Origin: Parcubacteria group bacterium
GTDB lineage: Bacteria; Patescibacteriota; Minisyncoccia; Moranbacterales; UBA2206
Direction of reading: 5' to 3'
NCBI GenBank assembly: GCA_041664225.1
Contig: JBAYLE010000005.1
Location: 1 to 60,171 of the forward strand
Length of the DNA: 60,171 nt
Part shown: piece after piece, positions 23,655 through 57,263 of the stretch
Layout of the letters: each line of letters begins with the position of its first letter
Position numbering within the stretch: the first letter of the stretch is position 1
Translations under genes and position numbers: made by a program
Notes under the pieces: generated by a model
The model's database searches: none
Told to the model about the DNA's origin: nothing
Seen by the model: the letters and a program-made list of their open reading frames with translations, nothing else

Positions 23655-23662
23655 AAAGGCGT

Positions 23663-26638: not shown

Positions 26639-26639
26639 T

Positions 26640-42481: not shown

Positions 42482-42560
42482 CCATTTTTATGGTATTATT
42501 TAAGTAGAAAATAAAAAACAATCCGGATAGGGGCGGGTGGCTAGAAAGCGGGGTGTTATT

Positions 42561-42764
42561 ATGAAAAACAAGGAAAATTTATCAAAAATCGCTATGGCCC
42601 TTTCTGTTGTCGCGGTTGTATTGGCTGCAATTGATACTTTAGCTGGAACTGACGTGTTGGGATTGGCCGGAACGCAATGGATTTTGGTTGGCATTGTTAT
42701 GGCGATTTATGCCGTATATCTCGGAACTTGCAGTTGCGGATGCTGCACTGACAAAAAAGAATAA
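42561..42764 (+). CDS. Small two-TM membrane protein with Cys-cluster tail (CSCGCC)
   Basis: Hydrophobic segments IAMALSVVAVVLAAI and WILVGIVMAIYAVYL. Tail GTCSCGCCTDKKE. The alternative GTG start is at 42537. Confidence 0.5.
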   Translation: MKNKENLSKIAMALSVVAVVLAAIDTLAGTDVLGLAGTQWILVGIVMAIYAVYLGTCSCGCCTDKKE

Positions 42765-44973: not shown

Positions 44974-45391
44974 GGTGGAGTTGATGGGAATCGCACCCAT
45001 GTCCAAAATTGTTATATTAAAATAATCTACAAGCGTAGTTTATTTATTTCCGCCGAGGCGGATCAATTAAAAAGTGATAAATAAACAAAATCTTTTTAAT
45101 CTATGTCTAAATTAGTTTTGAAAATATGGCTTAAACAAAATCATATTTTCTATCTCAATAATATGACACCGGAGACTGCTTATTGAGAATCAACAGTCCG
45201 ATGGCTCTAGGTAATCGCCTGAAGAGGCAATTTAAGCTAAAGCGGGAGCAAAACTTGCAAATGCTTGCGCAAATGTAGCCTTCGCTTTTGTTATGAAGTT
45301 TGCACTTATAACTTTGATACGAGTTTAACGAGTAAGTATCATGCTCGGCTTGCATATTTTAAAAGTACAACCTGTCGAAACTAGGCAACCC
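44974..45391 (-). ncRNA. ssrA: tmRNA (SsrA), about 418 nt
   Basis: 5' GGGGTTGCCTAGTTTCGACAGG pairs with 3' CAACTCCACC, giving a G3:U70 alanine-identity pair. T arm ATGGG-TGCGATT-CCCAT. Tag frame GCA AAC TTC ... GCT TTA GCT TAA (45303 down to 45232) encodes ANFITKAKATFAQAFASFAPALA. Adjacent to smpB. Confidence 0.85.
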
Positions 45392-45392
45392 C

Positions 45393-45857
45393 CTAGTAAT
45401 TTTTCAGCGCCCTTTTTATCCTTCTTTCGCTTTCTTTTTTGGCGAGGTCTTCGCGCTTATCAAACTTCTTTTTTCCTTTACCAACGCCAAACTCTAACTT
45501 CAATAGTCGCTTTTTAGTATACACTCGAATTGGCACCAGTGTCAAGCCTTCTGTGCGCACTTTGCCGATTAAACGGCGGATTTCCGCTTTGCGGAGCAAA
45601 AGCTTCCTCGGGCGGGTCGGTTCGTAGTTTTTTATCTCACCGGCGTGTTTCCAAGGCGTGATATGGGCGTTAGTCAGGTATAATTCTGCGCCCTTAACTG
45701 TGACAAAGCTTTCTTTGAGGCTGATATGGCCGGCTTTGACCGATTTCACTTCTTGGCCGGTCAAAACCAAGCCAGCCTCGTATTTGTCCGAAATTTGGTA
45801 GTCAAAATTAGCGCGCTTGTTGTAGGCTGCAGTTGTCATGTTTAAAGTATAGAGCAT
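45393..45857 (-). CDS. smpB: SsrA-binding protein SmpB
   Basis: NKRANFDY ... EAGLVLTGQEVKS ... YEPTRPRKLLL ... GKGKKKFDKRE. Confidence 0.95.
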   Translation of the reverse strand: MLYTLNMTTAAYNKRANFDYQISDKYEAGLVLTGQEVKSVKAGHISLKESFVTVKGAELYLTNAHITPWKHAGEIKNYEPTRPRKLLLRKAEIRRLIGKVRTEGLTLVPIRVYTKKRLLKLEFGVGKGKKKFDKREDLAKKESERRIKRALKNY

Positions 45858-45915
45858 TAATCAGAAAGTATAAAGTTTCTACGTTTCCTAAAGCAAAAAT
45901 ACAAAAAACAGTTTC

Positions 45916-45944
45916 TTGACAAGAGTTTTTATCTGAATTAGCAT
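45916..45944 (+). promoter_or_regulatory. Promoter TTGACA-N17-TAGCAT heading the Hxs-like cluster
   Basis: Hexamers read directly, about 30 nt upstream of the first cluster gene. Confidence 0.55.
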
Positions 45945-45977
45945 TAATAGGACTTTAAATAAAATTTTACTGAATTT

Positions 45978-46436
45978 ATGAAGAAAAACTTAGGAGATAA
46001 TGCTATCACTTTTTCATTAAATACAAACATTTACACGCCGGAGATAATTTATAAAACGTGCTATGTTTTCATTGATCGGATGTATATTTATCTTGATCAG
46101 CCAGAAAAAAATCTAATCACGGCATCTCTTAGGGGTAAACGTGAACTAAATCAAGGGGAGCTAAAAAAGCTAGAAGGAGAGTTTTTCAATGAGCTTTTGA
46201 ACACAAAACTGCGGGAAGAAATTTCCAGGAAAAACGCGAAACTTTTAGAATATATAGTGGGAGGGGCAATAAACGCTGCGCTGGAAAAGGATGAAAATTC
46301 CGGCAAAGATGAATTCGCCGATATTGAAAAGGAAATAAGGCAGCTGGATGAAGAATTGGCAGAAATGGACAAGGCGGATTATAAAAAAGACTCTCTTAAT
46401 ATCAGGCAAATCAAGAAGATTAATAAAAAGAAATAA
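45978..46436 (+). CDS. hxsD: HxsD-like protein (His-Xaa-Ser system)
   Basis: EFFNELLNTKLREEI resembles the LLNDYxLRE signature I recall for the HxsD family. Acidic coiled-coil tail. Confidence 0.55.
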   Translation: MKKNLGDNAITFSLNTNIYTPEIIYKTCYVFIDRMYIYLDQPEKNLITASLRGKRELNQGELKKLEGEFFNELLNTKLREEISRKNAKLLEYIVGGAINAALEKDENSGKDEFADIEKEIRQLDEELAEMDKADYKKDSLNIRQIKKINKKK

Positions 46437-46663
46437 TGGCAAAGTATCAAAAATCAATAAACTTTTGCAGCAGCTTGTATTCAGAAAAAAGCATCAAGGA
46501 GGCCACAAATGAATACAAAAAAGCCTATGGCGGAAAAATCGGCTTTGAAATTTTAAAGGAAAAGGGATATACACAAATAAAGTTATTATTAAACGATAAT
46601 AATTTGGGTGACAATATTGCGGATGAATTTTCCAATTATTTGTTGTTTTTGAACATACAATGA
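46436..46663 (+). CDS. Short HxsD-like paralogue (ends just after the EFxNYLL motif)
   Basis: The template SINFCSSLYSEKSIKEA ... IKLLL ... ADEFSNYLLFL parallels the N-terminal half of the 45978 protein. TAATG and ATGA overlaps with both neighbours. Confidence 0.45.
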   Translation: MAKYQKSINFCSSLYSEKSIKEATNEYKKAYGGKIGFEILKEKGYTQIKLLLNDNNLGDNIADEFSNYLLFLNIQ

Positions 46664-48126
46664 AAAAAGATGAATCTTTTTTAGTAAAAAATAGGAAGCT
46701 GGATAAATTTTATTTCAGGCAGCTTCGGGAAAAAACTCTCATTACTAATGATGGCGGAAATTGGATTTCTTTGCCGAATGATGATTTTAGGCGTTTTATT
46801 TCAGGAAAAATAAAGAACACAGAAAAGCTGTACCAGGAACTTGAAAAAAAAGGATTCATAAATGTCGGAAAGAAAAAACTTTCTGAATTAGCCAGCCAGT
46901 ATTTAAAATTAAACTACTCGCTTTCTCAGGGGCCTTCTCTTTTTATCATTGTTCTTACGCTGCGGTGCAACCACCGCTGTTTGTATTGCCAGGTTATTCC
47001 GGAAAATCCCAAGCAGAAAGGTTTTGATATGGGCAAAGCAACTGCCAAGAAAACGGTTGATTTGATTTTCCGGACTCCCTCAGAAAGTGTCCGTCTTGAA
47101 TTTCAAGGCGGAGAGCCACTACTCAACTGGCCAGTGTTGAAATACGTTGTGAAATATGCCAAAGAAGTGAATAAAAAGAAGAAAAAAAATTTAAAAATAA
47201 GCATTGTTTCCAATCTTTCCTTGATGGATGACGAAAAATTGAAATTTCTGCTGGACGAGGAAGTTGACATTGCTTGCTCGTTGGATGGGCCGGCTAAAGT
47301 GCATGATAAGAACAGAACATATTTGGACGGCGCTAGCAGCCATAAAGTTGTATCCGTCAAAATAAAAAAAATTCAAAAAGAAATCAAAAAAAAGCAAGAA
47401 AAAACAAAAGAAAAGACGGACAAATTGAATGCAATACTTACAGTTACTAAATTTTCCCTCCCGTACTATAAAGAAATTATTGACGAATATATGAGCTATG
47501 GCCTGGATAATGTTTTTATCAGGCCGCTGAGCCCTTTCGGCCTGGAACGAAAAACAACTGACCTAATCGGTTATACGGCGGAAGAGTTTTTGGAATTTTA
47601 CAAAAAATCCTTGGATTACATAGTGGAATTGAACTTAAAGGGGAAACTTTTTGCGGAAAGAGGAACATTCAATATCCTAAGAAAAATATTAAAGCAAGAG
47701 GATCCCAATTTTCTGGAATTGCGTTCGCCATGCGGGGCAGGAATCGGGCAGATGGCTTTTGACTATGACGGAAAAATATTTACTTGCGATGAGGGCAGGA
47801 TGGCGCGCCGGATGAGCCATGATAACTTTATGATAGGCGAGGTAGATGATAATGACTATAACCGGCTGATTGATAATGAAGTTGTAAAAACTATGTGCCT
47901 GGCATCCTCTCTGGATAATCATGCCGGCTGTCAAGATTGCGTCTATAAACCATATTGCGGAGTTTGTCCCTTGGCTAATTATATCGAGTGCGGAACGATT
48001 TTTCCCCAGTTAGCCAATACGTTGCGATGCCGGATAAATAAGGGCATCTTTGACTATATATTCCGAAAGATGGGGGACAAAAAATACCGAACCGTTTTTG
48101 AAAGCTGGGTGGGTAAGGGGTTATAA
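46660..48126 (+). CDS. hxsB: Radical SAM / SPASM-domain maturase, HxsB-like
   Basis: CNHRCLYC (CxxxCxxC), FQGGEPLL, C-terminal CGAG ... CDEG ... CQDCVYKPYCGVCP (SPASM-type Cys pattern). Confidence 0.7.
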   Translation: MKKDESFLVKNRKLDKFYFRQLREKTLITNDGGNWISLPNDDFRRFISGKIKNTEKLYQELEKKGFINVGKKKLSELASQYLKLNYSLSQGPSLFIIVLTLRCNHRCLYCQVIPENPKQKGFDMGKATAKKTVDLIFRTPSESVRLEFQGGEPLLNWPVLKYVVKYAKEVNKKKKKNLKISIVSNLSLMDDEKLKFLLDEEVDIACSLDGPAKVHDKNRTYLDGASSHKVVSVKIKKIQKEIKKKQEKTKEKTDKLNAILTVTKFSLPYYKEIIDEYMSYGLDNVFIRPLSPFGLERKTTDLIGYTAEEFLEFYKKSLDYIVELNLKGKLFAERGTFNILRKILKQEDPNFLELRSPCGAGIGQMAFDYDGKIFTCDEGRMARRMSHDNFMIGEVDDNDYNRLIDNEVVKTMCLASSLDNHAGCQDCVYKPYCGVCPLANYIECGTIFPQLANTLRCRINKGIFDYIFRKMGDKKYRTVFESWVGKGL

Positions 48127-48165
48127 TTCTTTTTAGGGGCTGTGGACAACATGGTGGGCGGTGTA

Positions 48166-48195
48166 TTTACATAATTATGCGGGTTATGGTATAAT
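48166..48195 (+). promoter_or_regulatory. Internal promoter TTTACA-N18-(TG)G-TATAAT in front of the precursor gene
   Basis: Extended -10 TGGTATAAT read directly. Short AT-rich leader with no SD. Confidence 0.5.
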
Positions 48196-48222
48196 ATAAA
48201 CATAAAAATTTCTTATAAAAAA

Positions 48223-48477
48223 ATGGCAAGGAATAAAAAAATCCCTCAAATTAAAAAAAACATTAAAGTATTTTTGCAAAGTGAGGAAGGAAAGATTGTC
48301 GAAAAAGATGCCGTCAAGCTGGGCATAGCTTTAATCGCGGCGGCGGGCATTATAAGCGGGATAGCCAAGCCGGACGCAACCCAGGCAGGATGCCACTCTT
48401 CCCACTCTTCCCATGGCTCGCATGGCTCCCATGGCTCGCATGGCTCCGGCAGCGGGTGCCAGATCGGCGGGTGGTAA
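48223..48477 (+). CDS. hxsA: His-Xaa-Ser repeat peptide (HxsA-like candidate precursor)
   Basis: C-terminal C-HSS-HSS-HGS-HGS-HGS-HGS-GSGC-QIGGW. N-terminal basic segment followed by a hydrophobic helix (KLGIALIAAAGIISGIA). Confidence 0.7.
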   Translation: MARNKKIPQIKKNIKVFLQSEEGKIVEKDAVKLGIALIAAAGIISGIAKPDATQAGCHSSHSSHGSHGSHGSHGSGSGCQIGGW

Positions 48478-48496
48478 TAAAGTTTAATAACATATT

Positions 48497-49273
48497 ATGG
48501 CAAAAAAAATAATACTTGCATTAATTGTTGTTGTGATCTTGGTTGTCATAGCCTTAGTTGGTGGCAACATCTCAAAAAATAAAAAAGCAAGCGAGGTGAA
48601 CCAACAAAATAATGATTTGAAGGTGGTGAAAAACGTTCCTTGTCCAGAGGCTTTTAATCCTGAAAAAGCATCAGAAAATTTTGACAAGCTTGCTCCTTCT
48701 ACTAAAGATCTGCTTGGCCAGTACTCTTTTTGTAAGGCTGCTTTGGACGGCGATAAGACAATTTGTGGCAAGTTGCCGCCCAGCTATGAAAAATCAACTT
48801 GTGAGGACGATTATGGTACCGGAGTTGATGTGTTTTTGACGAAAATATTGGGGAAGAAAAATTTTACCGATGATGACGTTAAATATTGCGTTGATAAAAA
48901 TATTTTTGGCGTAGCCGATTTGGAACAAAGGGGGAATCGATGCCGGACAACGCTTACAGCCATATTCAGCCAAGATGTCAAAATTTGCGACCAGGAAACC
49001 AGTGATTATGGAAAGGCCAATTGCATCAATGTTGTCTCGGGCAAGCCAAGCGCTGGCAACTGCGATAATGTCTCAAATGAAGAGAGCAAAGAAATGTGCA
49101 AAATCAGGGCTAAATTCATCCAGACTCTTAAGTTCGAAAAAACAGCTGTCAATTGTGATGCTATATCGGAGCAATATATCAAATTTAATACCCTCTGCCG
49201 GTTGCATTTTCTCTCCTCGTGCGATGATTTTTTGAAGCAATTGCGGGATAATTACTTTTGCGTGGGAAATTAA
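48497..49273 (+). CDS. Membrane-anchored exported protein with 14 spaced cysteines
   Basis: N-terminal TM IILALIVVVILVVIALV. Cysteines recur every 10-25 aa (for example CPEAF, FCKAAL, ICGKL, TCEDD, YCVDK). Confidence 0.65.
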   Translation: MAKKIILALIVVVILVVIALVGGNISKNKKASEVNQQNNDLKVVKNVPCPEAFNPEKASENFDKLAPSTKDLLGQYSFCKAALDGDKTICGKLPPSYEKSTCEDDYGTGVDVFLTKILGKKNFTDDDVKYCVDKNIFGVADLEQRGNRCRTTLTAIFSQDVKICDQETSDYGKANCINVVSGKPSAGNCDNVSNEESKEMCKIRAKFIQTLKFEKTAVNCDAISEQYIKFNTLCRLHFLSSCDDFLKQLRDNYFCVGN

Positions 49274-50317
49274 ATGGAAATAGTCCTGGTTGTTACAAAG
49301 CAATGCAACTTTGCTTGCCGGTATTGCTATGAAAAAAACAAAAAAATAGCGGGGGGAAAAATGCCTTTCGAAACAGCCAGAAAAATTCTGGATTTTTTTT
49401 TACCGCATTTACGCGCTGGTGATGCGGTGCATTTATTCGGCGGCGAGCCGCTTCTGGTTTTCCCTCTAATCAAAAAAATTATCAGCCATATCAAATCAGA
49501 AAATAGCAAGGTTCAAATCAGATTAGATACAAACGGCTCTCTGCTTTCCGGCAGAATCCTCGATTTTCTAAGGAAAAATAAAGTCAGCCTGACACTCAGT
49601 ATGGATGGCGGTCCGGAAACGCAAAACTGCAACCGCTGCGCTCAAGACAAAGCTGTGGACACTTATGATATTATTGCCAAAAGCAATTTTTTTAAAAAAA
49701 TTGTCAGTTATCCGCAACTGCAGATTAATCAAGTTGCCGCTATGAATAGGATTAACTTTTTGGCTCAGGATTTTTTCCACCTGGTTAAATTGGGCTTTAG
49801 AAATATAAATATTAAGGAAGAGAAGGGGAAAATTTGGCCGAAGACAAAACTGGAGGTACTGGAAAAAGAGCTGCGCAAAATTAATTATTACTGCCTGAAA
49901 CACCGGCAGAATATTAAGATAAAACATCTGAGCGGATATTTGGACAATCCCAAAAGCGGATTGCGGAAGAGCATGGAATGCCATCCTGAGCAGATGGTCG
50001 TCGCCCTGCCTAGCGGAGATATTTTTCCGTGCTCGGCAGTGTTGAGCGTGACAAAAAAACTCTATCTGGAAAGCATGAAGGTAATCTCTGCCACCGATTT
50101 GGAAAAGATCAAGCATAAAGAATTTTTCAAAATCAAGCGTCAAGCCTACTTGAAGGCTTATGATAAAATGAAACAAGATACGATGTTTATGGGCAAGAAA
50201 GTGCTATGCGCCGCTTTGCTTAAGAATCAAGACAATTTGAATTTAAAGAAGATGCATGAAAATGAAAAACAGAAAGCTAGTGTTTTCAACCGCAGCATAA
50301 AATATTTTCTCAAATAA
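49274..50317 (+). CDS. Radical SAM enzyme (possible HxsC counterpart)
   Basis: CNFACRYC, FGGEPLL. The start abuts the previous stop. Confidence 0.7.
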   Translation: MEIVLVVTKQCNFACRYCYEKNKKIAGGKMPFETARKILDFFLPHLRAGDAVHLFGGEPLLVFPLIKKIISHIKSENSKVQIRLDTNGSLLSGRILDFLRKNKVSLTLSMDGGPETQNCNRCAQDKAVDTYDIIAKSNFFKKIVSYPQLQINQVAAMNRINFLAQDFFHLVKLGFRNINIKEEKGKIWPKTKLEVLEKELRKINYYCLKHRQNIKIKHLSGYLDNPKSGLRKSMECHPEQMVVALPSGDIFPCSAVLSVTKKLYLESMKVISATDLEKIKHKEFFKIKRQAYLKAYDKMKQDTMFMGKKVLCAALLKNQDNLNLKKMHENEKQKASVFNRSIKYFLK

Positions 50318-50331: not shown

Positions 50332-51369
50332 ATGGCAGAAAAAAAGAAAGAAATCAGCTTGTTTATTGTCTTGACGCATAATTGCAATTTTCATTGCCGT
50401 TATTGCGAAATATGCAGCCATTTTTGCAAGGTTTGCAAAGGCAACTGCGTGATGACCGGAGAGACGATCAATAAAATCGAGGAATTATTGAAAAGATCGG
50501 AAAATGATTTTAAAAAAATCAACCTGTCTTTTTTTGGAGGCGAACCGTTGTTGCATTTTGACAAAATGAAGAAGTTAGTAGATAGGGTGAGAAAATCAAA
50601 AAATAGTAACAAATATGAAATTTATCTTTATACCAACGGGTATCTGCTGGATAAGAAAAAGATCGAGTATCTTAAAAAAAACAAGGTGCAAGTCAGTTTA
50701 AGTTTCGACGGCAGAGAAAAAACACAGAATTTAAATCGCCCGTTAAGAGAAAATAATGGAGAGACATATAAAACAGTGCTTGAAAACATTAAAACTTTAC
50801 GCTCCAGAAACAAAATTTTTTCCGATGTGAATTTGTACATGACATCATTTCCATCTTTGGCAAAAGATCTTTTTGAAGATTTCAAACACATGCTACGCTT
50901 GGGATTTCGCAGATTTGAATTAGTGCCGGCGGTTTCAGGCAGGGGATCATGGGACTGGAATGAAGAACAATTAAAGGTGTTTGAAAAAGAGCTAGAAAAA
51001 ATAAAAAAATTAGCGGTAAGGCTCCATAAGGCTGGAATAAATTTGATTTTTCAGGAAGTATCTGAAATCAAGAATCCCGAACGCTACTTTGAAAACTTCG
51101 GCCAAAATATTTTCAGCATTGATTCAAATGGCAGTGTTTATTCCTCGCCATATTATTTGGTCCTGACTGAACCGCATCGGGGAAAATACAGAATTGGGCA
51201 TGTAACAACGGCCAAAAATATCAAGGATGATTTTTTGGGTAAAAAAGATCTGCTCAATTCAGGGGATTTATTTAAATTATATTATATCAACAAGGGGAAT
51301 AATCTCAGAAGCATGGTTATCTGCAATAAAAAATTATGCGAAATAAGAAAATTGATAAAATATACCTGA
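50332..51369 (+). CDS. Radical SAM enzyme with an extra Cys cluster directly after the SAM motif
   Basis: CNFHCRYCEICSHFCKVCKGNC, FFGGEPLL. Confidence 0.7.
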   Translation: MAEKKKEISLFIVLTHNCNFHCRYCEICSHFCKVCKGNCVMTGETINKIEELLKRSENDFKKINLSFFGGEPLLHFDKMKKLVDRVRKSKNSNKYEIYLYTNGYLLDKKKIEYLKKNKVQVSLSFDGREKTQNLNRPLRENNGETYKTVLENIKTLRSRNKIFSDVNLYMTSFPSLAKDLFEDFKHMLRLGFRRFELVPAVSGRGSWDWNEEQLKVFEKELEKIKKLAVRLHKAGINLIFQEVSEIKNPERYFENFGQNIFSIDSNGSVYSSPYYLVLTEPHRGKYRIGHVTTAKNIKDDFLGKKDLLNSGDLFKLYYINKGNNLRSMVICNKKLCEIRKLIKYT

Positions 51370-52343
51370 AAAATGTTTGCCGATCGATTTCCGGGCTTTC
51401 CGGCATAAGCCGGCCTGGAAAGTTAGCAATGCAAAAAGCGAAAAAATTTGTTTCGCTTTTATATTTGGCAAATTCGCAAAACAGCAATTTTTTGTCCGAC
51501 GATTTTTACTTTGGTTTTTCGCTAAAAATAAAGAGAGGCAATGGAAAAATAATTCCGTCAATCAGGATACTGAACCACAATTATTATCCCAGGGTGACAA
51601 GCGAGCTGCAAAGGGAAAAAATTTATAAAAAGAGAGGACAGATCATAAAGCACATTTTCAAGGCCCTGAATTTTTCAACCGAAAAAAATCTCACGACCAT
51701 CGATTATTTGCTGGAAAAAACTTACGATAAGAATGTCCTCTTGCCGGTGCAATTCGATGCTAATTTTGAGAAAAATAAGAATGCGCTCAAGGTTTATTTT
51801 TGGTGCGGGATCAAATATTCCACGCGGGAGCATAAGTACGCAGTATTGAAGGAAATTCTAGGGAAAGAAAAAATGGCAGATGACATTCTTTTTCTTCGCA
51901 ACAGAAACATCGAATTATTCAGTTTTGATTTTGGGGAAAAAAAGAAAGGCGCCAAAATTTACGTGCGTTACCGCATGAATTCGAGGGAATTTTACGCGGA
52001 TTTAAAAAAGTTTAATTTTAAAAAAGAAACGATCGCGGATATCAATAAATTCTTCTTTGCTCACAAGGAGTATTTGCAGCCAGATGTCACAATTTGTTAT
52101 AATGTCGCGGGCAGGGCTCTCTCTATGAAAAAAATCGAGCTTTTTTTGGATAAAAAAGTAGAAAGAAAAACCGTAATAGCAAAAAAAGTGGCGGCGGATT
52201 TCACCCGTAAATTCTCAGAAAAATTCATCGCTCCTCTTGAAACGGAAGACTTTTTTGGGGAATCATATGCTTACGCGGTAGGAGAAAATTTTATAGCCGT
52301 CTATTTCCAGAAAATAAAATCAGAAAGAAATAGGTCTGGTTAA
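51336..52343 (+). CDS. Unknown beta-strand-rich protein (speculative ABBA-prenyltransferase-like fold)
   Basis: Recurrent strand-like segments FGFSLKI, ALKVYFWCG, LFSFDFG..GAKIYVRY, DVTICYNV, FIAVYFQ. The start is uncertain: 51336 overlaps the upstream gene by 34 nt, and the next ATG is at 51429. Confidence 0.5.
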   Translation: MRNKKIDKIYLKNVCRSISGLSGISRPGKLAMQKAKKFVSLLYLANSQNSNFLSDDFYFGFSLKIKRGNGKIIPSIRILNHNYYPRVTSELQREKIYKKRGQIIKHIFKALNFSTEKNLTTIDYLLEKTYDKNVLLPVQFDANFEKNKNALKVYFWCGIKYSTREHKYAVLKEILGKEKMADDILFLRNRNIELFSFDFGEKKKGAKIYVRYRMNSREFYADLKKFNFKKETIADINKFFFAHKEYLQPDVTICYNVAGRALSMKKIELFLDKKVERKTVIAKKVAADFTRKFSEKFIAPLETEDFFGESYAYAVGENFIAVYFQKIKSERNRSG

Positions 52344-52363: not shown

Positions 52364-53254
52364 ATGAAAAAAGCCGACATTAAAACAGGATTTTTGTGCA
52401 ATAATGATTGTCTTTTTTGCGTGCAGGGCAGTGAGAAGAAAAAATTTGGCAACAAAAAAACCGCGGAAATAAAAAAAATTATGGATGAGGCCAAGCGTGA
52501 TTGTCAGATCGTCGTTTTTACCGGTGGTGAGCCGACTATCCGCCAGGATATTATTGAGTTGGTGGGGTACGCGAAAAAGCTGGGTTTTGCGATGATTCAG
52601 ATCCAGTCCAATGGCAGAATGTTCGCCTACAAAGATTTTTGCAAAAAAATAATCAAGGCAGGAGCCAATGAATTCGCCTTAGCTTTGCATGGCCACATTC
52701 CTGAGTTGCACGATTATCTCACGCAAAGCGAAAGTTTTCTGCAAACGGTAAGAGGAATAAAAAATCTTAAAAAACTCAAACAAACCGTGATTATGAATAC
52801 CGTAATCACCAAATCCAATTATCGCCACTTGCCGGAAATTGCCAAGCTTTTGGTGAGCCTCGATGTTGATCAGTTCCAATTTGCATTTGTCCACGCCATT
52901 GGTTCGGCTGGCAAAAATTTTCAAAGCATCGTTCCGCGGATGACAATGGTTATGCCGTATCTTAAAAAGGCGATAAGTATCGGCAAGCATTTCAATAAGA
53001 GCGCTATGGTCGAGGCCGTGCCTCGTTGTCTTTTAGAAGGCTATGAAGACAATATATCGGAAAATATGATGCCGGAAATGAAGATATATGACCAGGATTT
53101 TATAATTAAAAGTTACACTCAAGCTAGAATTACTAAAGGCAAAGCCAGAGGACCGCGATGCAAAAAATGCAAATATTTCCATGTTTGTGAAGGATCTTGG
53201 AAAGAATATCCGGATCATTTTGGGTGGGATGAATTTGAACCGTTGTTAACATAA
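52364..53254 (+). CDS. Radical SAM enzyme, CNNDCLFC subgroup, C-terminal CxxCxxxxxC
   Basis: FLCNNDCLFCVQG, FTGGEPT, QSNGRMF, RCKKCKYFHVCEG. Confidence 0.7.
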   Translation: MKKADIKTGFLCNNDCLFCVQGSEKKKFGNKKTAEIKKIMDEAKRDCQIVVFTGGEPTIRQDIIELVGYAKKLGFAMIQIQSNGRMFAYKDFCKKIIKAGANEFALALHGHIPELHDYLTQSESFLQTVRGIKNLKKLKQTVIMNTVITKSNYRHLPEIAKLLVSLDVDQFQFAFVHAIGSAGKNFQSIVPRMTMVMPYLKKAISIGKHFNKSAMVEAVPRCLLEGYEDNISENMMPEMKIYDQDFIIKSYTQARITKGKARGPRCKKCKYFHVCEGSWKEYPDHFGWDEFEPLLT

Positions 53255-53260
53255 CTTTTT

Positions 53261-54220
53261 ATGATAAAGGCGGAGAAAATAATAAGTATTTTGCGAAATG
53301 TTCCAAAAAATAAAGACGGTGCTATTTCCAGAAAAAACCTAGACAGACATATCCTAAAAAGAGGAACGGATCTGGAAAAATTACTTGGTTTTTTGGCTAA
53401 AAAAGAATATATTTTTCACGGCTCGAAGAAGCTTTATAAAATTATCAAACCGCAAAAAAGCCATAGAATTTCGGGAGAAACAATATCAGCTATTTACGCT
53501 ACAAAAATACCCTCAATAGCTATTTATTATGCTATGATTAGCCGCAGTACGCATAAGATAGTTCATGGAAAAAAGTTTTACAATAAGCATAAAAATAACA
53601 ATAAGGGGTATATTTATATTTTGAGAAGAAATGACTTTGAAAAAAACAATGATGAGAATTTCCTTTGCCGCAAAAAGGTCGAACCAGAGTTTATTTTTGA
53701 ATGCCGATTTGATGATTTTTATAATAATCTTAAAAAAGAAAAAATTAACTGGAAAAAAGCCGGAGAAATAATTTTGCAAAATTACATCCATTCAAGCGCG
53801 GTTCACAACGTGAAACATGTCTTGAAAACCGTTAGAAATTCTTCTATCATTGCGAAATCGGTATGCCCGGAAAAAATAGATGATGTCAAGATGGGAGCCT
53901 TACTACATGATATTGGGAGAGTGGATGATTTCGACAGGGAATCGACGCATGCACAGAAGGGGGCGGCTATCGCTTATGAAATTCTGGCGAAATATTTCAG
54001 AAATGCACCCCTTGATTTCAAAAAAATTTTATTTGCCGTAAAATACCATTCGCGGGGCAAAATATCCCGAGATCCGGTTATTGGAGCGATTTGGGATGGA
54101 GACAGGCTTGATTTAGAGAGAGTCGGAATGAAAGTTAATCCAAAATATCTTTCCACTAAAAAAGCTAAAGAAATTATGCGTTCTAGGCTTATCGAAAAGC
54201 TTAAAAATATATCTTCTTAA
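53261..54220 (+). CDS. HD-domain phosphohydrolase-like protein with unknown N-terminal domain
   Basis: H ... LLHDIGRVDD ... HAQKGA ... KYHS in the C-terminal half. Confidence 0.6.
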   Translation: MIKAEKIISILRNVPKNKDGAISRKNLDRHILKRGTDLEKLLGFLAKKEYIFHGSKKLYKIIKPQKSHRISGETISAIYATKIPSIAIYYAMISRSTHKIVHGKKFYNKHKNNNKGYIYILRRNDFEKNNDENFLCRKKVEPEFIFECRFDDFYNNLKKEKINWKKAGEIILQNYIHSSAVHNVKHVLKTVRNSSIIAKSVCPEKIDDVKMGALLHDIGRVDDFDRESTHAQKGAAIAYEILAKYFRNAPLDFKKILFAVKYHSRGKISRDPVIGAIWDGDRLDLERVGMKVNPKYLSTKKAKEIMRSRLIEKLKNISS

Positions 54221-54228
54221 CAACCGTC

Positions 54229-55362
54229 ATGCTAAAAAACAATTTAAAACTAAGAGAAAAAGCCGCGGAAGAAAAAAGGCAGTGGGTGAGAATCACCAGA
54301 GCGTGCAACAATGATTGCCTTTTTTGTTTGGATCAAGAAGCCCATAACGGGAAACTTGTTCCGATAACAGAAGTGGTGAGAGTTTTGAAGCAGGGGGGAA
54401 AGGAAGGAGCGGCCAGAGCTATCATTTCCGGCGGAGAGCCGACTCTTCATCCGCAAGTTTTTGAAATAATTAGAAAAGCAAGGCAATTGGGCTACAAGCA
54501 TGTTCAGATGATCAGCAATGGCCGGATGCTGGCTTATGAAAATTTTGTCCAAAAGCTCAAAGAGGCTGGTTTAGATGAGGTTACCCTCTCCTTGCATAGC
54601 CATAAAAAAAATGATTTTGAAAAAATGTCAGGCGTGAAAGGAAGCTACTTACAGGCGATGCGGGGGCTCAAGAACGCTTTGGACAATAATTTCATTGTGA
54701 GCGTGGACATCGTGATCAATAAGATAAATTACAAGACACTCAAAGAAACAATGATTTTTTTTGAAAAAATGGGAGTATCTGAATTCGATCTTTTGCACCT
54801 AGTTCCATTTGGAAGTGCCTGGAAAAACAAGGATCAGTTGTTCTTTTCTTCAGCAGAGGCAAAAAAATATTTGCACCGGGCTTTTCAATTAGGGAAAAGA
54901 AAAAATTTATTCATCTGGACCAATCGTTTGCCGGCAGCATATTTGGAGGGCTTTGAAGAATTGATCCAGCATCCTATCAAAATGTCCGGTGAGATCAAGG
55001 GGATGGAAAGAAACTTTTTAGAATTTGTGAAAAGCGGCAAAAAAATGCCATGTTTTGGCGAAAGATGCGAATTTTGCTTTCTCCATGATTTTTGCGCTGA
55101 TCTTTCCGAGTTACGGGACAAAAAATTTTTGGAAGCCAAGCTGGCGCCTCCGTGTTTTGTGCAAAAAAAGGCTCCAAAAAAAGTGTTTAAATTCACGAAA
55201 AATTTTGATATCTATGAATTTTTGAAATTTTTTATTGACCATCGTTATTTTATTAAGAGTACTGGTTGCAGTAATTGCAAATACGACCAGCTTTGCCAGG
55301 GCGCCCAAATCAACGAGATCAGGAGCAAGGGATTCAAAATTTTAAAATCCATTAAAAAATAG
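54229..55362 (+). CDS. Radical SAM enzyme, CNNDCLFC subgroup
   Basis: RACNNDCLFCLD, ISGGEPT, ISNGRML, SLHSH, C-terminal CSNCKYDQLCQG. Confidence 0.7.
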   Translation: MLKNNLKLREKAAEEKRQWVRITRACNNDCLFCLDQEAHNGKLVPITEVVRVLKQGGKEGAARAIISGGEPTLHPQVFEIIRKARQLGYKHVQMISNGRMLAYENFVQKLKEAGLDEVTLSLHSHKKNDFEKMSGVKGSYLQAMRGLKNALDNNFIVSVDIVINKINYKTLKETMIFFEKMGVSEFDLLHLVPFGSAWKNKDQLFFSSAEAKKYLHRAFQLGKRKNLFIWTNRLPAAYLEGFEELIQHPIKMSGEIKGMERNFLEFVKSGKKMPCFGERCEFCFLHDFCADLSELRDKKFLEAKLAPPCFVQKKAPKKVFKFTKNFDIYEFLKFFIDHRYFIKSTGCSNCKYDQLCQGAQINEIRSKGFKILKSIKK

Positions 55363-55371
55363 TTACTGTTT

Positions 55372-56307
55372 ATGGCAAATATTGGATATATTCAAATCAC
55401 GCGCGAATGCAACCAGAAATGCATCATATGTTCCAATCCGCCGACGGACCAGTTTCTTGAATTTGCTCAAGCTAAAAAAGAAATAGACGGTCTAAAAGCG
55501 AAGGGATGCAGCGGAGTTATTTTTACCGGCGGGGAACCGACTCTTTACGCAAAACTTCCAGAACTTATCAAATATGCTTCGCGCGCCGGATTATTTCCCA
55601 GAATCATCACCAATGGCCAAAAGATTGCCAAGATTGCTTATTTGAAAGAACTCAAAAAAGCCGGGCTCAAGCATTTGCATCTTTCGGTTTATTCTGGCGA
55701 GGAAGGAATCCAAAGCCGGCTTTCCGGCAATAAAAATTCGCTGAAAAACATAAAGAAAGCTCTGGATAATTTGAAAAAAATCGGGGGGATCAGTGTGGAT
55801 GTCAATACAGCCATCAGCCGATACAATGCCGGGCACCTTTCAAAAACAGCAAGCTGGCTAATTGAGAGGTATCCCTTTATCAGCCATTTTGTTTTTAACA
55901 ATCTGGATCCTTTCATGAACCGGGTATCAGAGAATCCGGAAGTCGTGCCCAAGCTAGCTGACTTTGAGCTAGAACTGCATAAAACTTTAAAAATGCTGGA
56001 GCAAAACAAAAAGACATTCCGAGTCGAACGCGTGCCCCTGTGCTATCTGCCGGAATTTGAGCATATTGCCACGGAAACCAGAAAAATTATCAAAAGCGAA
56101 AGCCGTATGATTTTCTTTTTGGACCGGCGGGGTAAATTTGAGCAGACTGGTTTTCGTGAATACAAAAAATTTCCGCCCTGTCAGGCTTGTTCGCTTAAAA
56201 AAATTTGCGCCGGTCTTTATGCCAAGGGCGGGTATTATAGCGAAAAAGAACTTTTTCCGGTCTTTGTTGATCCTCAAAATATAATCGATAAAATCTCCAA
56301 AGGCTGA
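55372..56307 (+). CDS. Radical SAM enzyme, related subgroup
   Basis: RECNQKCIICSN, FTGGEPT, ITNGQK, C-terminal CQACSLKKICAG. Confidence 0.7.
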   Translation: MANIGYIQITRECNQKCIICSNPPTDQFLEFAQAKKEIDGLKAKGCSGVIFTGGEPTLYAKLPELIKYASRAGLFPRIITNGQKIAKIAYLKELKKAGLKHLHLSVYSGEEGIQSRLSGNKNSLKNIKKALDNLKKIGGISVDVNTAISRYNAGHLSKTASWLIERYPFISHFVFNNLDPFMNRVSENPEVVPKLADFELELHKTLKMLEQNKKTFRVERVPLCYLPEFEHIATETRKIIKSESRMIFFLDRRGKFEQTGFREYKKFPPCQACSLKKICAGLYAKGGYYSEKELFPVFVDPQNIIDKISKG

Positions 56308-56336
56308 CACTGGCAACTCAACAGTAATAAAAAAAT

Positions 56337-57263
56337 ATGGCGCTCAATTACATTCCATTGGCAATAATATTTTTCATCAGTTTTTTTGTATTAAAAGAAG
56401 ATTGGCAATATAAAAAAATCAGAAACAAATGGATAATGCTAGGTTTTTCGGCCGGAGCCGTATATCTTGTCATTTCTTATTTATTTGGAATAGTCAGCAT
56501 TGAGTATTTGGGAAAAATTGTTGCCAACACCGCCATTTCATTTTTAGTTGGTTTTCTTATTTGGCAATTCGGCTTCTGGCCTTCGGGAGACGCTAAGTTT
56601 TTTACGCTTATCGCTTTCTTGTTGCCGCTGGATCTTTACGCCCAGGCATATCTTTTTTATTTTCCTTCCTTTTGGTTGCTCTTCTATTCCTTTGCGGCGT
56701 TCTTGGTCTTCATCTTTTTTAAAGCGCTGATATTTTTTGTAAAATATTTATTTTCCCATCGGGGCAAGAGCGGCCGGACAAATGAATTGATAGCTGAGGT
56801 CATCAATTCCAAAAAATTATTAAATTTAAATTTTTGGGTAAAAATCGGCAAGCGGCTTGCGATTGGGCTGTTAATTTACTTTATCGCAGTCAAATTTTTT
56901 TTGAAAACCGACTTCAATTTTTGGAGGTTTATTATTTCGCTGGTTGTCTTCGCGGTCGTTCTGGCTCTCCTGGATTTTTATGTGGATCATAATTCCAGAT
57001 ATAAAATAAAAACGCTTGAGCTGAAAAAAGGCATGAATATATCCAAAGAAACTTTAGCTGAGATCAAGAAAGACAATAACTTTCCTGAATTAGCGGGGAA
57101 AATTTTTCCGGAAGGACTGACTGAAAAACAGGCGTCAGCAATTAAAAATTACTTGGCAGGCAGAGATATTCAAGAAATTTATATTTTCAAGACTATTCCT
57201 TTTGCCTGGTGGATAGTCTTGGGAGCCTTTTGGGTGGCGGTCTCATCCCAAAGATTATTCTGA
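56337..57263 (+). CDS. Polytopic membrane protein, A24 (prepilin/preflagellin peptidase)-like aspartic peptidase with inserted soluble domain
   Basis: Two Asp contexts as in the A24 family: LKEDWQYKKIRNKW and FWPSGDAKFFTLIA (GxGD-like). C-terminal IPFAWWIVLGA resembles the PilD-type ending. Confidence 0.55.
   Translation: MALNYIPLAIIFFISFFVLKEDWQYKKIRNKWIMLGFSAGAVYLVISYLFGIVSIEYLGKIVANTAISFLVGFLIWQFGFWPSGDAKFFTLIAFLLPLDLYAQAYLFYFPSFWLLFYSFAAFLVFIFFKALIFFVKYLFSHRGKSGRTNELIAEVINSKKLLNLNFWVKIGKRLAIGLLIYFIAVKFFLKTDFNFWRFIISLVVFAVVLALLDFYVDHNSRYKIKTLELKKGMNISKETLAEIKKDNNFPELAGKIFPEGLTEKQASAIKNYLAGRDIQEIYIFKTIPFAWWIVLGAFWVAVSSQRLF

What the first reader, a model, noticed from the sequence alone, without database searches (positions are those of the whole stretch)
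48223..48477. 84-aa candidate precursor: Cys-bracketed (His-Xaa-Ser)x6 core behind a basic, hydrophobic leader
The C-terminus reads AG-C-HSS-HSS-HGS-HGS-HGS-HGS-GSG-C-QIGGW, so the six H-x-S triplets (about 48394-48447) are framed by two cysteines. At the DNA level, the last four triplets are near-identical catggctc(g/c) units. The gene has its own extended -10 promoter (TGGTATAAT) inside the operon and no SD, which fits high, independent expression of a substrate peptide. The leader (MARNKKIPQIKKNIK ... KLG-IALIAAAGIISGIA) resembles a membrane-inserted or class-III-signal-like segment more than a typical soluble RiPP leader. The His/Ser/Cys composition would also suit metal binding.
Basis: partly seen in the sequence, partly recalled or inferred. 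Interest (0 to 1): 0.75.

Follow-up and report, generated by a model that had tools for sequence, protein, structure and literature searches.

The report
Short His-Xaa-Ser (HxsA-type) precursor peptide
The 84-codon gene is real and encodes the substrate peptide of a variant "His-Xaa-Ser" radical-SAM maturation system, a system whose E. coli version was shown in 2026 to block phage DNA entry; this version, in an uncultured ultra-small bacterium, is a short, probably exported form inside a much larger, unstudied enzyme cluster.

Summary
ORF 48223-48477 (+) encodes 84 aa ending AGC-(HSS)2-(HGS)4-GSGC-QIGGW.

It belongs to a family of at least 239 short proteins with these parts:
- a conserved leader (P-x-I-K-K-x-L-K-x-F-L-x-S-E-E-G-K-I; F17, L18, E21, E22, G23 near-invariant);
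- a hydrophobic segment ending in an A-x-A-type site;
- a variable array of 2-20 HxS units;
- a W, Y or GWC tail.

Substitutions against relatives fall mainly on third codon positions. An HxS ORF lies beside the HxsB orthologue in 20 of 22 related loci.

The window cluster is HxsD, an HxsD-like protein, HxsB (508 bits, cutoff 370), the peptide, a TM-anchored Cys-rich protein, two PapB-like rSAMs, three HxsC-like rSAMs and a GxGD (prepilin-peptidase-like) membrane protease.

The peptide scores below the curated HxsA3 and HxsA4 cutoffs, and no canonical HxsC or peptidoglycan-binding domain is present. It is therefore a variant of a known kind, not a new kind.

Most likely course: the leader docks on HxsB/HxsD, the HxS core is modified in the cytoplasm, and the peptide is then exported. 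A delta-proteobacterial relative carries a Tat signal at the homologous position.

"No SD" is genome-wide here and not informative. The function (phage barrier or metal binding) is untested.

The parts
48166..48195 (+). Sigma-70-like promoter candidate, TTTACA-18-TATAAT with TG (extended -10 TGGTATAAT), 28 nt upstream of the peptide ATG
   Evidence: 11 of 12 match, among the two best in 45800-49400. Similar elements lie 30-55 nt upstream in several relatives. The regions are 65-76% AT, so this is suggestive only.
48223..48477 (+). Gene for the 84-aa HxsA-type precursor peptide (includes the stop codon)
   Evidence: NCBIfam HxsA3 48.6 bits (cutoff 65), covering residues 7-77. 239 homologues. 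Third-position substitution bias. The identical protein is called as a gene in two other assemblies.
48223..48324 (+). Leader, residues 1-34: Lys-rich N-terminus, the conserved motif P8-x-I-K-K-x-L-K-x-F17-L18-x-S-E21-E22-G23-K-I, then K32-L-G34
   Evidence: Among 120 homologues: F 117, L 119, E 119, E 119, G 111, K/R32 108, G/A/S34 120. Its role as a docking site for HxsB/HxsD is inferred.
48325..48387 (+). Hydrophobic segment (residues 35-48) plus c-region K-P-D-A-T-Q-A (49-55), signal-peptide-like, with a candidate signal peptidase I site after A55
   Evidence: position 53 is A/V/T/S in 113 of 120, position 55 is A/G/S in 108 of 120, position 50 is P in 57 and A in 31. The homologous segment of L078 passes the TIGR01409 Tat-signal model.
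48391..48459 (+). Core: C57, six H-x-S units (48394-48447), G-S-G, C79
   Evidence: H58 is conserved in 118 of 120 and C57 in 64 of 120. Unit number is 2-20 in the family.
48460..48474 (+). C-terminal tail Q-I-G-G-W (the family ends in W, Y or GWC)
   Evidence: the last residue is W in 47, C in 32 and Y in 19 of 120.
45978..46436 (+). HxsD (152 aa), with the motif ELLNTKLRE
   Evidence: TIGR03976 54.2 bits (cutoff 50). 47-52% identical orthologues at the same position in L001, L003 and L005.
46436..46663 (+). HxsD-like small protein (75 aa)
   Evidence: NF038315 37.9 bits (cutoff 41). A conserved 71-75-aa gene sits at the same position in L001-L005.
46660..48126 (+). HxsB radical SAM/SPASM maturase (488 aa)
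   Evidence: TIGR03978 508.1 bits (cutoff 370), full length.
48497..49273 (+). Companion protein (258 aa): N-terminal TM anchor plus a Cys-repeat domain (14 Cys), presumably extracytoplasmic
   Evidence: The same architecture lies directly after the peptide in 9 related loci. 7 invariant and 2 near-invariant Cys in alignment A5. No family in Pfam or NCBIfam.
49274..50317 (+). PapB-like radical SAM (347 aa)
   Evidence: NF047865 135 bits (cutoff 340). Pfam Radical_SAM.
50332..51369 (+). PapB-like radical SAM (345 aa)
   Evidence: NF047865 128 bits (cutoff 340). Pfam Radical_SAM.
51336..52343 (+). 335-aa protein of unknown family; membership in the system is by position only
   Evidence: no family. 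No BLASTP match in related loci.
52364..53254 (+). HxsC-like radical SAM (296 aa), the most conserved gene of the cluster
   Evidence: HxsC4 178 bits (cutoff 500), HxsC 110.7 (cutoff 267.9). 55-70% identical orthologues in 80 loci.
53261..54220 (+). HD-domain protein (319 aa), a lineage-specific accessory gene
   Evidence: HD/HDIG domain. Not conserved in related loci. L001 has a YcaO at this position.
54229..55362 (+). HxsC-like radical SAM (377 aa)
   Evidence: HxsC 98.8 bits (cutoff 267.9). 40-58% identical orthologues follow the 296-aa rSAM in many loci.
55372..56307 (+). HxsC-like radical SAM (311 aa)
   Evidence: HxsC 88.8 bits. 44-63% identical orthologues in many loci.
56337..57263 (+). 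Polytopic membrane protein (308 aa), a candidate GxGD (A24, prepilin-peptidase-like) aspartyl protease with D22 and D85
   Evidence: Pfam Peptidase_A24 18.7 bits (cutoff 26.5). D22 and D85 invariant in 24 of 24, motif W-x-[AS]-G-D-[AS]-K. AF2 pLDDT 78; top PDB match FlaK 3s0x (prob 0.91, TM 0.52 on target, E 0.18).

Best explanation
The ORF encodes the precursor (HxsA-type substrate) of a variant His-Xaa-Ser radical-SAM maturation system in an uncultured, probably Patescibacteria (CPR) bacterium.

Shown:
- the gene is real and under selection;
- its leader and HxS core define a large family;
- the family is almost always encoded beside HxsD/HxsB orthologues and upstream of a conserved set of HxsC-like rSAM genes and a GxGD-type membrane protease gene.

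Inferred course:
1. The conserved N-terminal motif (residues 8-28) is the docking element for HxsB and/or the two HxsD-type proteins.
2. HxsB and the HxsC-like and PapB-like rSAM enzymes modify His/Ser (and perhaps Cys) residues of the HxS array in the cytoplasm.
3. The hydrophobic segment with its conserved A-x-A-type site acts as a Sec-type export signal. The roughly 29-residue modified core (G56-W84) is delivered to the outer face of the membrane, and C57 and C79 can close a ring there.
4. The GxGD protease processes the leader or the signal remnant.
5. The TM-anchored Cys-rich protein encoded next to the peptide is its extracytoplasmic partner.

By homology with the E. coli HXS system, the most likely role is an envelope-level barrier effector such as an antiphage one (my estimate about 0.3). 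Metal binding by the His array is the main functional alternative (about 0.25).
For: Identity.
- HxsB 508 bits against a 370 cutoff, and HxsD 54.2 against 50.
- The peptide hits HxsA3, HxsA4 and HxsA with E values from 5e-13 to 4e-6, and the HxsA3 match covers the leader as well.
- Distant relatives pass the HxsA4 cutoff and are so named by NCBI.

Coding.
- Third-position bias and a 13:4 synonymous to nonsynonymous ratio in the core.
- The identical protein is called in other assemblies.

Family anatomy.
-.
- The leader-only HMM retrieves only HxS ORFs in 85 loci.
- Leader-only phmmer gives 48 genuine clusters, most with HxS cores and some with other cores.

Synteny.
-.
- 20 of 22 HxsB loci carry an adjacent HxS ORF (together).

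Export.
- Position 53 is A/V/T/S in 113 of 120 homologues and position 55 is A/G/S in 108 of 120.
- The L078 homologue passes the Tat-signal model at 20.8 against 16.7, and L053 reaches 14.2.
- The neighbouring gene encodes a TM-anchored protein with a conserved Cys pattern.

Protease.
-.

Precedent.
- Canonical HxsA has a signal peptide, is matured by HxsB/C/D (N-terminal processing and a +8 Da change in an HxS unit), and acts in the periplasm against phage DNA entry (PMC13128918).
Against: - No experiment or expression data exist for this variant.
- The peptide is below the curated cutoffs of all HxsA models: HxsA3 48.6 against 65, HxsA4 27.7 against 55, HxsA 32.2 against 121.65.
- No canonical HxsC is present; the best match is 110.7 bits against 267.9.
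- There is no peptidoglycan-binding domain, and the repeats (HSS, HGS) lack the basic residues invoked for DNA binding in E. coli HxsA. Transferring the antiphage function is therefore weak.
- The cluster sits among housekeeping genes (smpB/tmRNA, infC-rpmI-rplT here; ftsA-ftsZ in L001 and L005), not in an obvious defence island.
- PADLOC gives only generic viperin-like rSAM similarity.
- The signal-peptide reading rests on inspection and column statistics. No dedicated predictor was available, and the window peptide itself has no RR motif and no Tat-model hit.
- Leader binding to HxsB/HxsD was not modelled.
Confidence: 0.8

Rival explanations
1. Class-III-signal, mini-pilin reading. The GxGD (A24-like) protease cuts the precursor at the cytoplasmic face after the conserved K32-L-G34. 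The hydrophobic segment then stays as the N-terminus of the mature product. That product is membrane-anchored, or assembles like a very small pilin, and displays the modified HxS tail outside the cell.
For: - An A24-like gene is conserved at the end of the cluster in many phyla.
- Its two Asp are invariant within a GxGD-like motif, and FlaK is the top structural match.
- In the peptide family, position 32 is K/R in 108 of 120 and position 34 is G/A/S in 120 of 120, directly before the hydrophobic stretch.
- The predicted topology (basic N-terminus inside, C-terminus outside) is that of prepilins.
Against: - The basic residue is at -3, not at -2 as in archaeal class III signals, and there is no Glu at +5 as in bacterial type IV pilins (from the sequence; the rules are general knowledge of these families).
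- No pilin or Flp family matches 10 family members even at E<=10.
- The hydrophobic stretch is short (about 14-16 residues) and is followed by a strongly conserved A-x-A-type site, which a retained anchor would not need.
- Relatives carry Tat-type signals.
- All the A24 evidence is below curated thresholds: Pfam 18.7 against 26.5, Foldseek E 0.18. A profile search of PDB sequences found nothing.
Confidence: 0.15
2. Diffusible RiPP natural product. The modified core is released from the cell as an antibiotic or a metallophore, and is not an envelope-associated effector.
For: - The family shows a conserved leader with a variable core. Some members carry Cys-rich or D/N/Y-rich cores on the same leader.
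- Tailoring enzymes vary between loci: YcaO, B12-rSAM, an ATP-pyrophosphatase-like protein and an HD protein.
- The core is His/Cys-rich, which suits Ni, Zn or Cu binding (inference).
Against: - The window cluster has no ABC exporter, immunity gene or C39-type leader peptidase.
- A TM-anchored Cys-rich partner gene is conserved right after the peptide.
- Some family members are 480-555-aa proteins with the same leader and HxS array fused to a large C-terminal domain. That is not natural-product-like.
- The canonical homologue is a protein effector (PMC13128918).
Confidence: 0.2
3. Spurious ORF. A tandem DNA repeat happens to lie in an open frame in an intergenic spacer after hxsB.
For: The core is a 9/18-bp tandem repeat. 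Two overlapping shadow ORFs exist on other frames. No SD is present.
Against: - 239 protein homologues share a repeat-free leader.
- Third-position substitution bias and an excess of synonymous changes.
- Position beside HxsB is conserved in 20 of 22 loci.
- SD is absent from most genes of this genome.
Confidence: 0.01

Closest known systems
Canonical HXS antiphage system of E. coli/Klebsiella (HxsD-HxsB-HxsC-HxsA; Haft & Basu 2011 as cited in PMC9062424; Li et al. 2026, PMC13128918)
   Same: - HxsB orthologue above the curated cutoff, and HxsD above its cutoff.
- A substrate with tandem His-Xaa-Ser units and an N-terminal export-type hydrophobic segment.
- Substrate gene in the same operon.
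- Several rSAM enzymes needed or available for maturation.
   Different: - The substrate is 84 aa instead of 214 aa.
- It has no peptidoglycan-binding domain.
- Its repeats are HSS/HGS without basic residues.
- No canonical HxsC. Three HxsC-like paralogues (89-111 bits against a 268 cutoff) and two PapB-like rSAMs are present in its place.
- Gene order is D, D-like, B, A rather than D-B-C-A.
- Extra genes: a GxGD protease, a Cys-rich TM protein and an HD protein.
- The host is a CPR-type bacterium. In the paper's census, 99.7% of systems are in Pseudomonadota.
NCBIfam HxsA3 (NF038309) and HxsA4 (NF038313) short His-Xaa-Ser repeat proteins, with HxsC4 (NF038332) and HxsD-like (NF038315)
   Same: - Same overall design: about 80-95 aa, with the leader motif, a hydrophobic segment and an HxS array.
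- The HxsA3 profile aligns to residues 7-77 of the window peptide.
- More distant members of the same homologous family pass the HxsA4 cutoff.
- The 296-aa rSAM is closest to HxsC4, and the 75-aa protein is closest to HxsD-like.
   Different: - The window peptide and its closest relatives (P0003, P0008, P0015, P0027) score 45-53 bits on HxsA3 (cutoff 65) and 25-50 on HxsA4 (cutoff 55), so no curated model captures them.
- HxsC4 scores 178 against 500, and HxsD-like 37.9 against 41.
- The sub-clade adds a Cys bracket and RGGWC or C-x-x-G-x-W tails.
- No paper in the searchable library describes HxsA3, HxsA4 or HxsC4.
rSAM/SPASM-dependent RiPP precursors in general (e.g. SCIFF, ranthipeptide/PapA, CXXX-repeat peptides)
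   Same: A conserved leader, a repetitive or variable core and an adjacent SPASM-type rSAM. HxsB and the two 345-347-aa rSAMs are related to PapB, CcpM and SCIFF maturases.
   Different: - The leader contains a signal-peptide-like hydrophobic segment, so it is not a soluble leader.
- No leader-peptidase/ABC exporter (C39) is encoded.
- The repeat is His/Ser-based, not Cys-based.
Class III (prepilin/preflagellin) signal peptides and A24 GxGD peptidases (PilD, FlaK)
   Same: A basic N-terminus, a small residue (G/A/S) directly before a hydrophobic stretch, and a GxGD-type polytopic protease gene in the same cluster whose top structural match is FlaK.
   Different: - The spacing of the basic residue differs, and there is no +5 Glu.
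- No pilin-family match.
- The leader is long (34 aa) and carries its own conserved motif.
- An A-x-A-type site lies after the hydrophobic stretch.
- The protease scores below the Pfam threshold.

Membership tests
His-Xaa-Ser (HXS) system | HxsB radical SAM/SPASM maturase (TIGR03978) in the locus | tested here: met
   508.1 bits against a 370 cutoff, profile positions 3-466 of 466. The gene at 46660-48126 ends 96 bp upstream of the peptide.
His-Xaa-Ser (HXS) system | HxsD (TIGR03976, LLNDYxLRE motif) in the locus | tested here: met
   54.2 bits against a 50 cutoff. The sequence contains ELLNTKLRE.
His-Xaa-Ser (HXS) system | HxsC radical SAM (TIGR03977) paired with HxsB | tested here: not met
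   the best scores are 110.7, 98.8 and 88.8 bits for three paralogues against a 267.9 cutoff. None is adjacent to HxsB. The extra rSAM next to HxsB in L001 and L003 is PapB-like, not HxsC.
His-Xaa-Ser (HXS) system | Substrate with tandem His-Xaa-Ser repeats encoded in the operon | tested here: met
   six in-register H-x-S units at 48394-48447.
His-Xaa-Ser (HXS) system | Canonical HxsA (TIGR03979): about 190-214 aa with a signal peptide, a peptidoglycan-binding domain and basic HxS repeats | tested here: not met
   32.2 bits against 121.65, repeat region only. The protein is 84 aa and no PG-binding domain appears in Pfam.
His-Xaa-Ser (HXS) system | rSAM-dependent covalent modification and N-terminal processing of the substrate; antiphage phenotype | not testable with these tools
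   Known only for the E. coli system (PMC13128918). It would need MS and phage assays.
NCBIfam HxsA3 (NF038309) | Score at or above the curated cutoff of 65 bits | tested here: not met
   48.6 bits, E 5.2e-13, residues 7-77 on profile positions 2-66 of 81. Close relatives score 45-53 bits.
NCBIfam HxsA4 (NF038313) | Score at or above the curated cutoff of 55 bits | tested here: not met
   27.7 bits. More distant homologues of the same family pass: P0074 60.7, P0081 60.1, P0110 95.5, P0037 85.3, L053 93.5, L029 58.1.
RiPP-type precursor | Conserved leader and variable core across homologues | tested here: met
   the leader motif is near-invariant, there are 2-20 HxS units, and some members carry non-HxS cores.
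RiPP-type precursor | Physical recognition of the leader by the maturase (RRE-type domain or partner protein) | not tested
   No complex modelling tool was available. Pfam sees only Radical_SAM and Fer4_12 in HxsB.
Sec/Tat-exported protein (signal peptide) | n-h-c architecture with small residues at -3 and -1 | tested here: inconclusive
   -3 is A/V/T/S in 113 of 120 and -1 is A/G/S in 108 of 120. The L078 homologue passes the Tat-signal model. The window peptide has no RR, its n-region is unusually long (about 32 aa), and no signal-peptide predictor was available.
Peptidase A24 (GxGD prepilin peptidase), for the 308-aa neighbour | Two catalytic Asp, the second in a GxGD motif; Pfam PF01478 above threshold; FlaK/PilD fold | tested here: inconclusive
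   D22 and D85 are invariant in 24 of 24, with the motif [AS]-G-D-[AS]-K. Pfam gives 18.7 bits against 26.5. 3 of 20 homologues carry a precomputed PF01478 hit. FlaK is the top Foldseek hit at prob 0.91 but E 0.18. A PDB sequence profile search found no hit.

The most novel reading that the evidence does not exclude
The window shows one example of a widespread, undescribed pathway found in CPR, DPANN archaea, Omnitrophota and, in part, Myxococcota and Bdellovibrionota. It combines six or more radical-SAM enzymes, two HxsD-type proteins, a dedicated GxGD intramembrane protease and a Cys-rich membrane partner. In this reading, the pathway turns a prepilin-like or signal-peptide-like precursor into a heavily modified, His-rich surface peptide. 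That would be a new class of cell-surface RiPP: an HXS-type gatekeeper adapted to ultra-small cells, or a metal- or host-contact structure.
Probability: 0.2. Interest if true: 0.8.

Novelty: new variant of a known kind. Interest (0 to 1): 0.45.

Why it matters
The His-Xaa-Ser system has only just been given a function: a periplasmic block of phage DNA entry, shown in E. coli in 2026. That census placed 99.7% of systems in Pseudomonadota. The family found here shows that HxsB/HxsD-dependent HxS substrates also exist as short, probably exported peptides in CPR bacteria, Omnitrophota and DPANN archaea. There they sit in much larger clusters with several HxsC-like rSAM enzymes and a prepilin-peptidase-like protease.

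If these variants are also envelope barriers, they would be a defence mechanism in lineages in which few defence systems have been reported (general knowledge, not tested here).

If they are not, they offer unexplored radical-SAM chemistry on His/Ser repeats. The small substrate is tractable: its leader, export signal and core are cleanly separable, and this could help define what the +8 Da HXS modification is.

Tried and rejected
1. Flp/Tad prepilin similarity. The leader motif F-L-x-S-E-E-G recalled the Flp motif F-L-K-D-E-S-G|ATAIEY (from memory). A permissive Pfam scan (E<=10) of 10 family members gave no Flp or pilin hit. Dropped.
2. Collagen-like reading. Pfam Collagen hits appear only for long arrays (L053 at 30.2 bits). 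Xaa is Gly in only about half of the units, and the window has four HGS units. Treated as a compositional artefact.
3. A PDB sequence-profile search with the A24-like alignment found no relevant hit. The structural route gave FlaK only at weak significance. The viral structure library was uninformative.
4. PADLOC (2023) gave only generic viperin-like rSAM similarity and has no HXS model.
5. A homology search with the Myxococcota leader (L053), meant to enlarge the Tat-motif sample, found nothing. The Tat inference therefore rests on L078 (passes), L053 and its close relative L077 (L053 scores just below the cutoff; L077 was not scanned) and L081 (no hit).
6. The 3721-aa hit P0142 in the leader search is a filamentous-haemagglutinin-type repeat protein, so it is spurious.
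7. Strain-level repeat-number variation: other assemblies of the same organism are 99.9-100% identical, with no length change.
8. The extra rSAM between HxsB and the peptide in L001 and L003 was tested as a possible canonical HxsC. It is PapB-like.
9. A literature search for HxsA3, HxsA4 and HxsC4 found no paper.
Full report
**1. Observation**

The ORF at 48223-48477 (+) has a single possible start and encodes 84 aa. The C-terminus reads AG-C-HSS-HSS-HGS-HGS-HGS-HGS-GSG-C-QIGGW.

- Tandem Repeats Finder reports CATGGCTCG x3.9 and an exact 18-bp unit x2.2.
- TGGTATAAT belongs to a TTTACA-18-TATAAT match with an upstream TG at 48166-48195. It is one of the two best promoter-like sites in 45800-49400.
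- No terminator-like site follows the gene. The next gene starts 19 bp later.
- There is no SD. However, only 9 of 45 genes checked in this window have one, and none of the cluster's genes does. That feature is therefore not informative.
- The window holds no second copy of the leader or of an HxS array.

**2. It is a real gene**

- The protein has 239 homologues at E<=0.01, and the best are 57-72% identical.
- Against eight relatives, substitutions fall mainly on third codon positions. Against L001 the counts at positions 1, 2 and 3 are 20, 10 and 36 in the leader and 5, 2 and 14 in the core. Synonymous changes outnumber nonsynonymous ones 13:4 in the core.
- The identical protein is called as a gene in independent assemblies. 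Their DNA is 99.9-100% identical to the window.

**3. Anatomy of the family**

- A variable Lys-rich start.
- A strongly conserved motif, P-x-I-K-K-x-L-K-x-F-L-x-S-E-E-G-K-I. Among 120 homologues, F17 occurs in 117, L18 in 119, E21 in 119, E22 in 119 and G23 in 111.
- K32 (K or R in 108), then a small residue at position 34 (G 90, A 27, S 3).
- A hydrophobic stretch of about 14-16 residues.
- A c-region, K-P-x-D-[AVTS]-x-[AGS]. Position 53 is A/V/T/S in 113 and position 55 is A/G/S in 108.
- Often a Cys (64 of 120), then an invariant His that opens the array.
- An array of 2-20 H-x-S units (median 7). Xaa is Gly in 463 units, Ser in 178 and Ala in 159.
- A tail ending in W (47), GWC (30) or Y (19).

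A leader-only HMM finds 30 ORFs in the 85 related loci held at that point, and all carry HxS arrays. A leader-only phmmer search of 1.84 billion representatives gives 49 hits. One is spurious (P0142). Of the other 48, 32 have HxS runs or scattered units. The remaining 16 are fragments or carry the same leader on other cores, such as Cys-rich or D/N/Y-rich ones. A conserved leader with a variable core is the pattern expected of a RiPP-type precursor.

**4. Genomic context**

NCBIfam identifies these neighbours:

| Window position | Product | Score against cutoff |
|---|---|---|
| 45978-46436 | HxsD | 54.2 / 50 |
| 46436-46663 | HxsD-like | 37.9 / 41 |
| 46660-48126 | HxsB | 508 / 370 |

The peptide itself scores 48.6 bits on HxsA3 (cutoff 65), 27.7 on HxsA4 (cutoff 55) and 32.2 on HxsA (cutoff 121.65).

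Downstream genes, in order:
- a 258-aa protein with a TM anchor and a Cys-rich domain;
- two PapB-like rSAMs;
- a 335-aa protein of unknown family;
- an HxsC-like rSAM of 296 aa (HxsC4 178 / 500; HxsC 110.7 / 267.9);
- an HD-domain protein;
- two further HxsC-like rSAMs of 377 and 311 aa;
- a 308-aa polytopic membrane protein with a weak Peptidase_A24 match.

The arrangement is conserved:
- Contigs encoding three homologous peptides show the order HxsD, a 71-75-aa gene, HxsB, an optional PapB-like rSAM, the peptide, a roughly 300-aa protein and then a string of rSAMs. YcaO, B12-rSAM or ATP-pyrophosphatase-like genes occur as variable extras.
- A scan of 185,579 species genomes, anchored on the 296-aa rSAM, found 271 relatives. 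The 80 loci fetched come from Patescibacteria, Omnitrophota, Myxococcota and other delta-proteobacterial MAGs, Bdellovibrionota, Schekmanbacteria, Margulisbacteria, Verrucomicrobia, and DPANN and Methanosarcinales archaea.
- The run of the 296-, 377- and 311-aa rSAMs followed by the A24-like gene recurs across these phyla.
- Of 22 non-redundant loci with an HxsB orthologue, 14 have a leader-bearing peptide within 3 kb downstream on the same strand. Six more have an HxS ORF nearby. One locus is cut 428 bp after HxsB, and one (L045) shows none in the 2.4 kb available.

The nearest relatives of the window's proteins are Patescibacteria and Moraniibacteriota MAGs at 65-70% identity. The window's own genome is not among the representative genomes.

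**5. How the leader is likely used**

Two conserved candidate processing sites flank the hydrophobic stretch.

The first is the A-x-A-type site after it, which fits the signal peptidase I rule. In a delta-proteobacterial homologue (L078), the segment at the homologous position, FTRRDFIAGSS followed by a hydrophobic run and AEA, passes the curated Tat-signal model (20.8 bits against 16.7). The L053 homologue reaches 14.2. The hydrophobic segment is therefore best read as an export signal. It is Tat-type where RR is present, and Sec-type by inference in the CPR forms, which have KK or EK at that position.

Export after cytoplasmic modification parallels canonical HxsA. That protein has a signal peptide, is matured by HxsB, HxsC and HxsD, and acts in the periplasm (PMC13128918).

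The second site is [KR]-hydrophobic-[GAS] directly before the hydrophobic stretch. It resembles a class III signal cleavage site, and the cluster encodes a candidate GxGD protease:
- D22 and D85 are invariant in 24 of 24 homologues, within W-x-[AS]-G-D-[AS]-K.
- The AF2 model has pLDDT 78 and pTM 0.71.
- FlaK (3s0x) is the top PDB match at probability 0.91 and TM 0.52 on the target. All other hits have probability <=0.07.

All of these values are below formal thresholds: Pfam 18.7 bits against 26.5, and Foldseek E 0.18. The protease assignment, and its action on this peptide, are inferences. It could remove the leader as a prepilin peptidase does, or clear the signal remnant as a signal-peptide peptidase does.

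**6. An extracytoplasmic partner**

In the window's sub-clade, the gene right after the peptide always encodes a 255-344-aa protein with an N-terminal TM segment and 12-16 Cys. Sequence identity is low (18-25%). Even so, seven Cys are invariant and two nearly so across ten sequences, the window's 258-aa protein included. A disulfide-rich, membrane-anchored neighbour fits a peptide that works outside the cytoplasm.

**7. Comparison with what is known**

The His-Xaa-Ser system was defined bioinformatically by Haft and Basu (as cited in PMC9062424). It was characterised in 2026 as an antiphage system that blocks phage DNA entry. Its gene order is D-B-C-A. [quoted passage not shown] NCBIfam also holds HxsA2, HxsA3, HxsA4, HxsC4 and HxsD-like models. 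No paper in the searchable library mentions them.

The window's system meets the HxsB, HxsD and HxS-substrate criteria. It fails the HxsC and canonical-HxsA criteria, and it falls below the HxsA3, HxsA4 and HxsC4 cutoffs. I therefore file it as a new variant of a known kind. It is homologous to the HXS system and works like it in outline. It differs in having a short exported substrate, multiple HxsC-like enzymes and a dedicated membrane protease.

**8. Function**

Function cannot be settled here. The antiphage role of E. coli HxsA relies on peptidoglycan anchoring and basic repeats, and both are absent here. The cluster also lies among housekeeping genes: smpB and tmRNA, and infC-rpmI-rplT. 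An envelope-barrier role remains the best lead by homology (about 0.3). Metal binding by the His array is the main alternative (about 0.25).

**9. Verdict**

The thing itself is a recognisable member of a curated but barely studied branch of a known system. Interest is moderate. The larger pathway around it is the more novel object.

Noticed in passing
window 48497-49273: The 258-aa protein directly after the peptide has an N-terminal TM anchor and 14 Cys. It belongs to a fast-evolving family (18-25% identity) with 7 invariant and 2 near-invariant Cys. The family always sits right after the HxS peptide in the window's sub-clade. No Pfam or NCBIfam family matches.
   Followed up: partly
window 56337-57263: A 308-aa polytopic membrane protein has invariant D22 and D85 (motif [AS]-G-D-[AS]-K), a weak Peptidase_A24 hit, and FlaK as its top structural match. 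A soluble insert at about residues 215-285 is not explained.
   Followed up: partly
window 52364-57263; loci L017-L058: The run of the 296-, 377- and 311-aa rSAMs followed by the A24-like gene occurs in many Myxococcota and delta-proteobacterial MAGs with no HxsB or HxS peptide within 10 kb. Their substrate may be encoded elsewhere or be of another kind.
   Followed up: no
L052:3135-4802; proteins P0158, P0166: Long forms (482-555 aa) carry the same leader, with very long HxS or S-C-H-S arrays fused to a conserved C-terminal domain of about 330 aa (CPFI..WNGK.F..ENNILP...). The leader is thus also used on full-size proteins.
   Followed up: no
proteins P0146-P0148, P0165, P0169, P0173: Some proteins have the same leader but a non-HxS core: Cys-rich, D/N/G/Y-rich, or only the RGGWC tail.
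   Followed up: no
L078:16034-16492 (-), L053:7638-8021, L077:7621-8022: Delta-proteobacterial and Myxococcota HxS peptides carry a twin-arginine motif (FTRRDFI, LTRRDLV) where CPR peptides have KKD or EKD. L078 passes the Tat-signal model.
   Followed up: partly
window 6826-11213 and 17444-27410, compared with the rest: SD-like motifs (GGAGG-type) precede a minority of genes (9 of 45), and these are mostly clustered in two stretches. Most genes, including the whole rSAM cluster, have A/T-rich upstream regions without an SD.
   Followed up: no
window 44974-45488 (-) and 45393-45857 (-): A tmRNA gene (tag ANFITKAKATFAQAFASFAPALA) lies directly downstream of smpB. ARAGORN's tmRNA coordinates overlap the 3' end of the smpB ORF by about 95 nt.
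   Followed up: no
window 42537-42764 (+): A 75-aa ORF has two hydrophobic segments and a C-terminal C-S-C-G-C-C motif. It was not examined.
   Followed up: no
window 51336-52343 and 50332-51369: The 335-aa ORF of unknown family overlaps the preceding rSAM gene by 34 nt. It has no homologue by BLASTP in the related loci, so its true start and its role are unclear.
   Followed up: no
L001:16697-17959; L003:12255-14592 and 18173-18898: Accessory tailoring genes differ between related clusters. L001 has a YcaO. L003 has DUF5838, a B12-binding rSAM and a diphthamide-synthase-like ATP pyrophosphatase. The window has an HD-domain protein.
   Followed up: no
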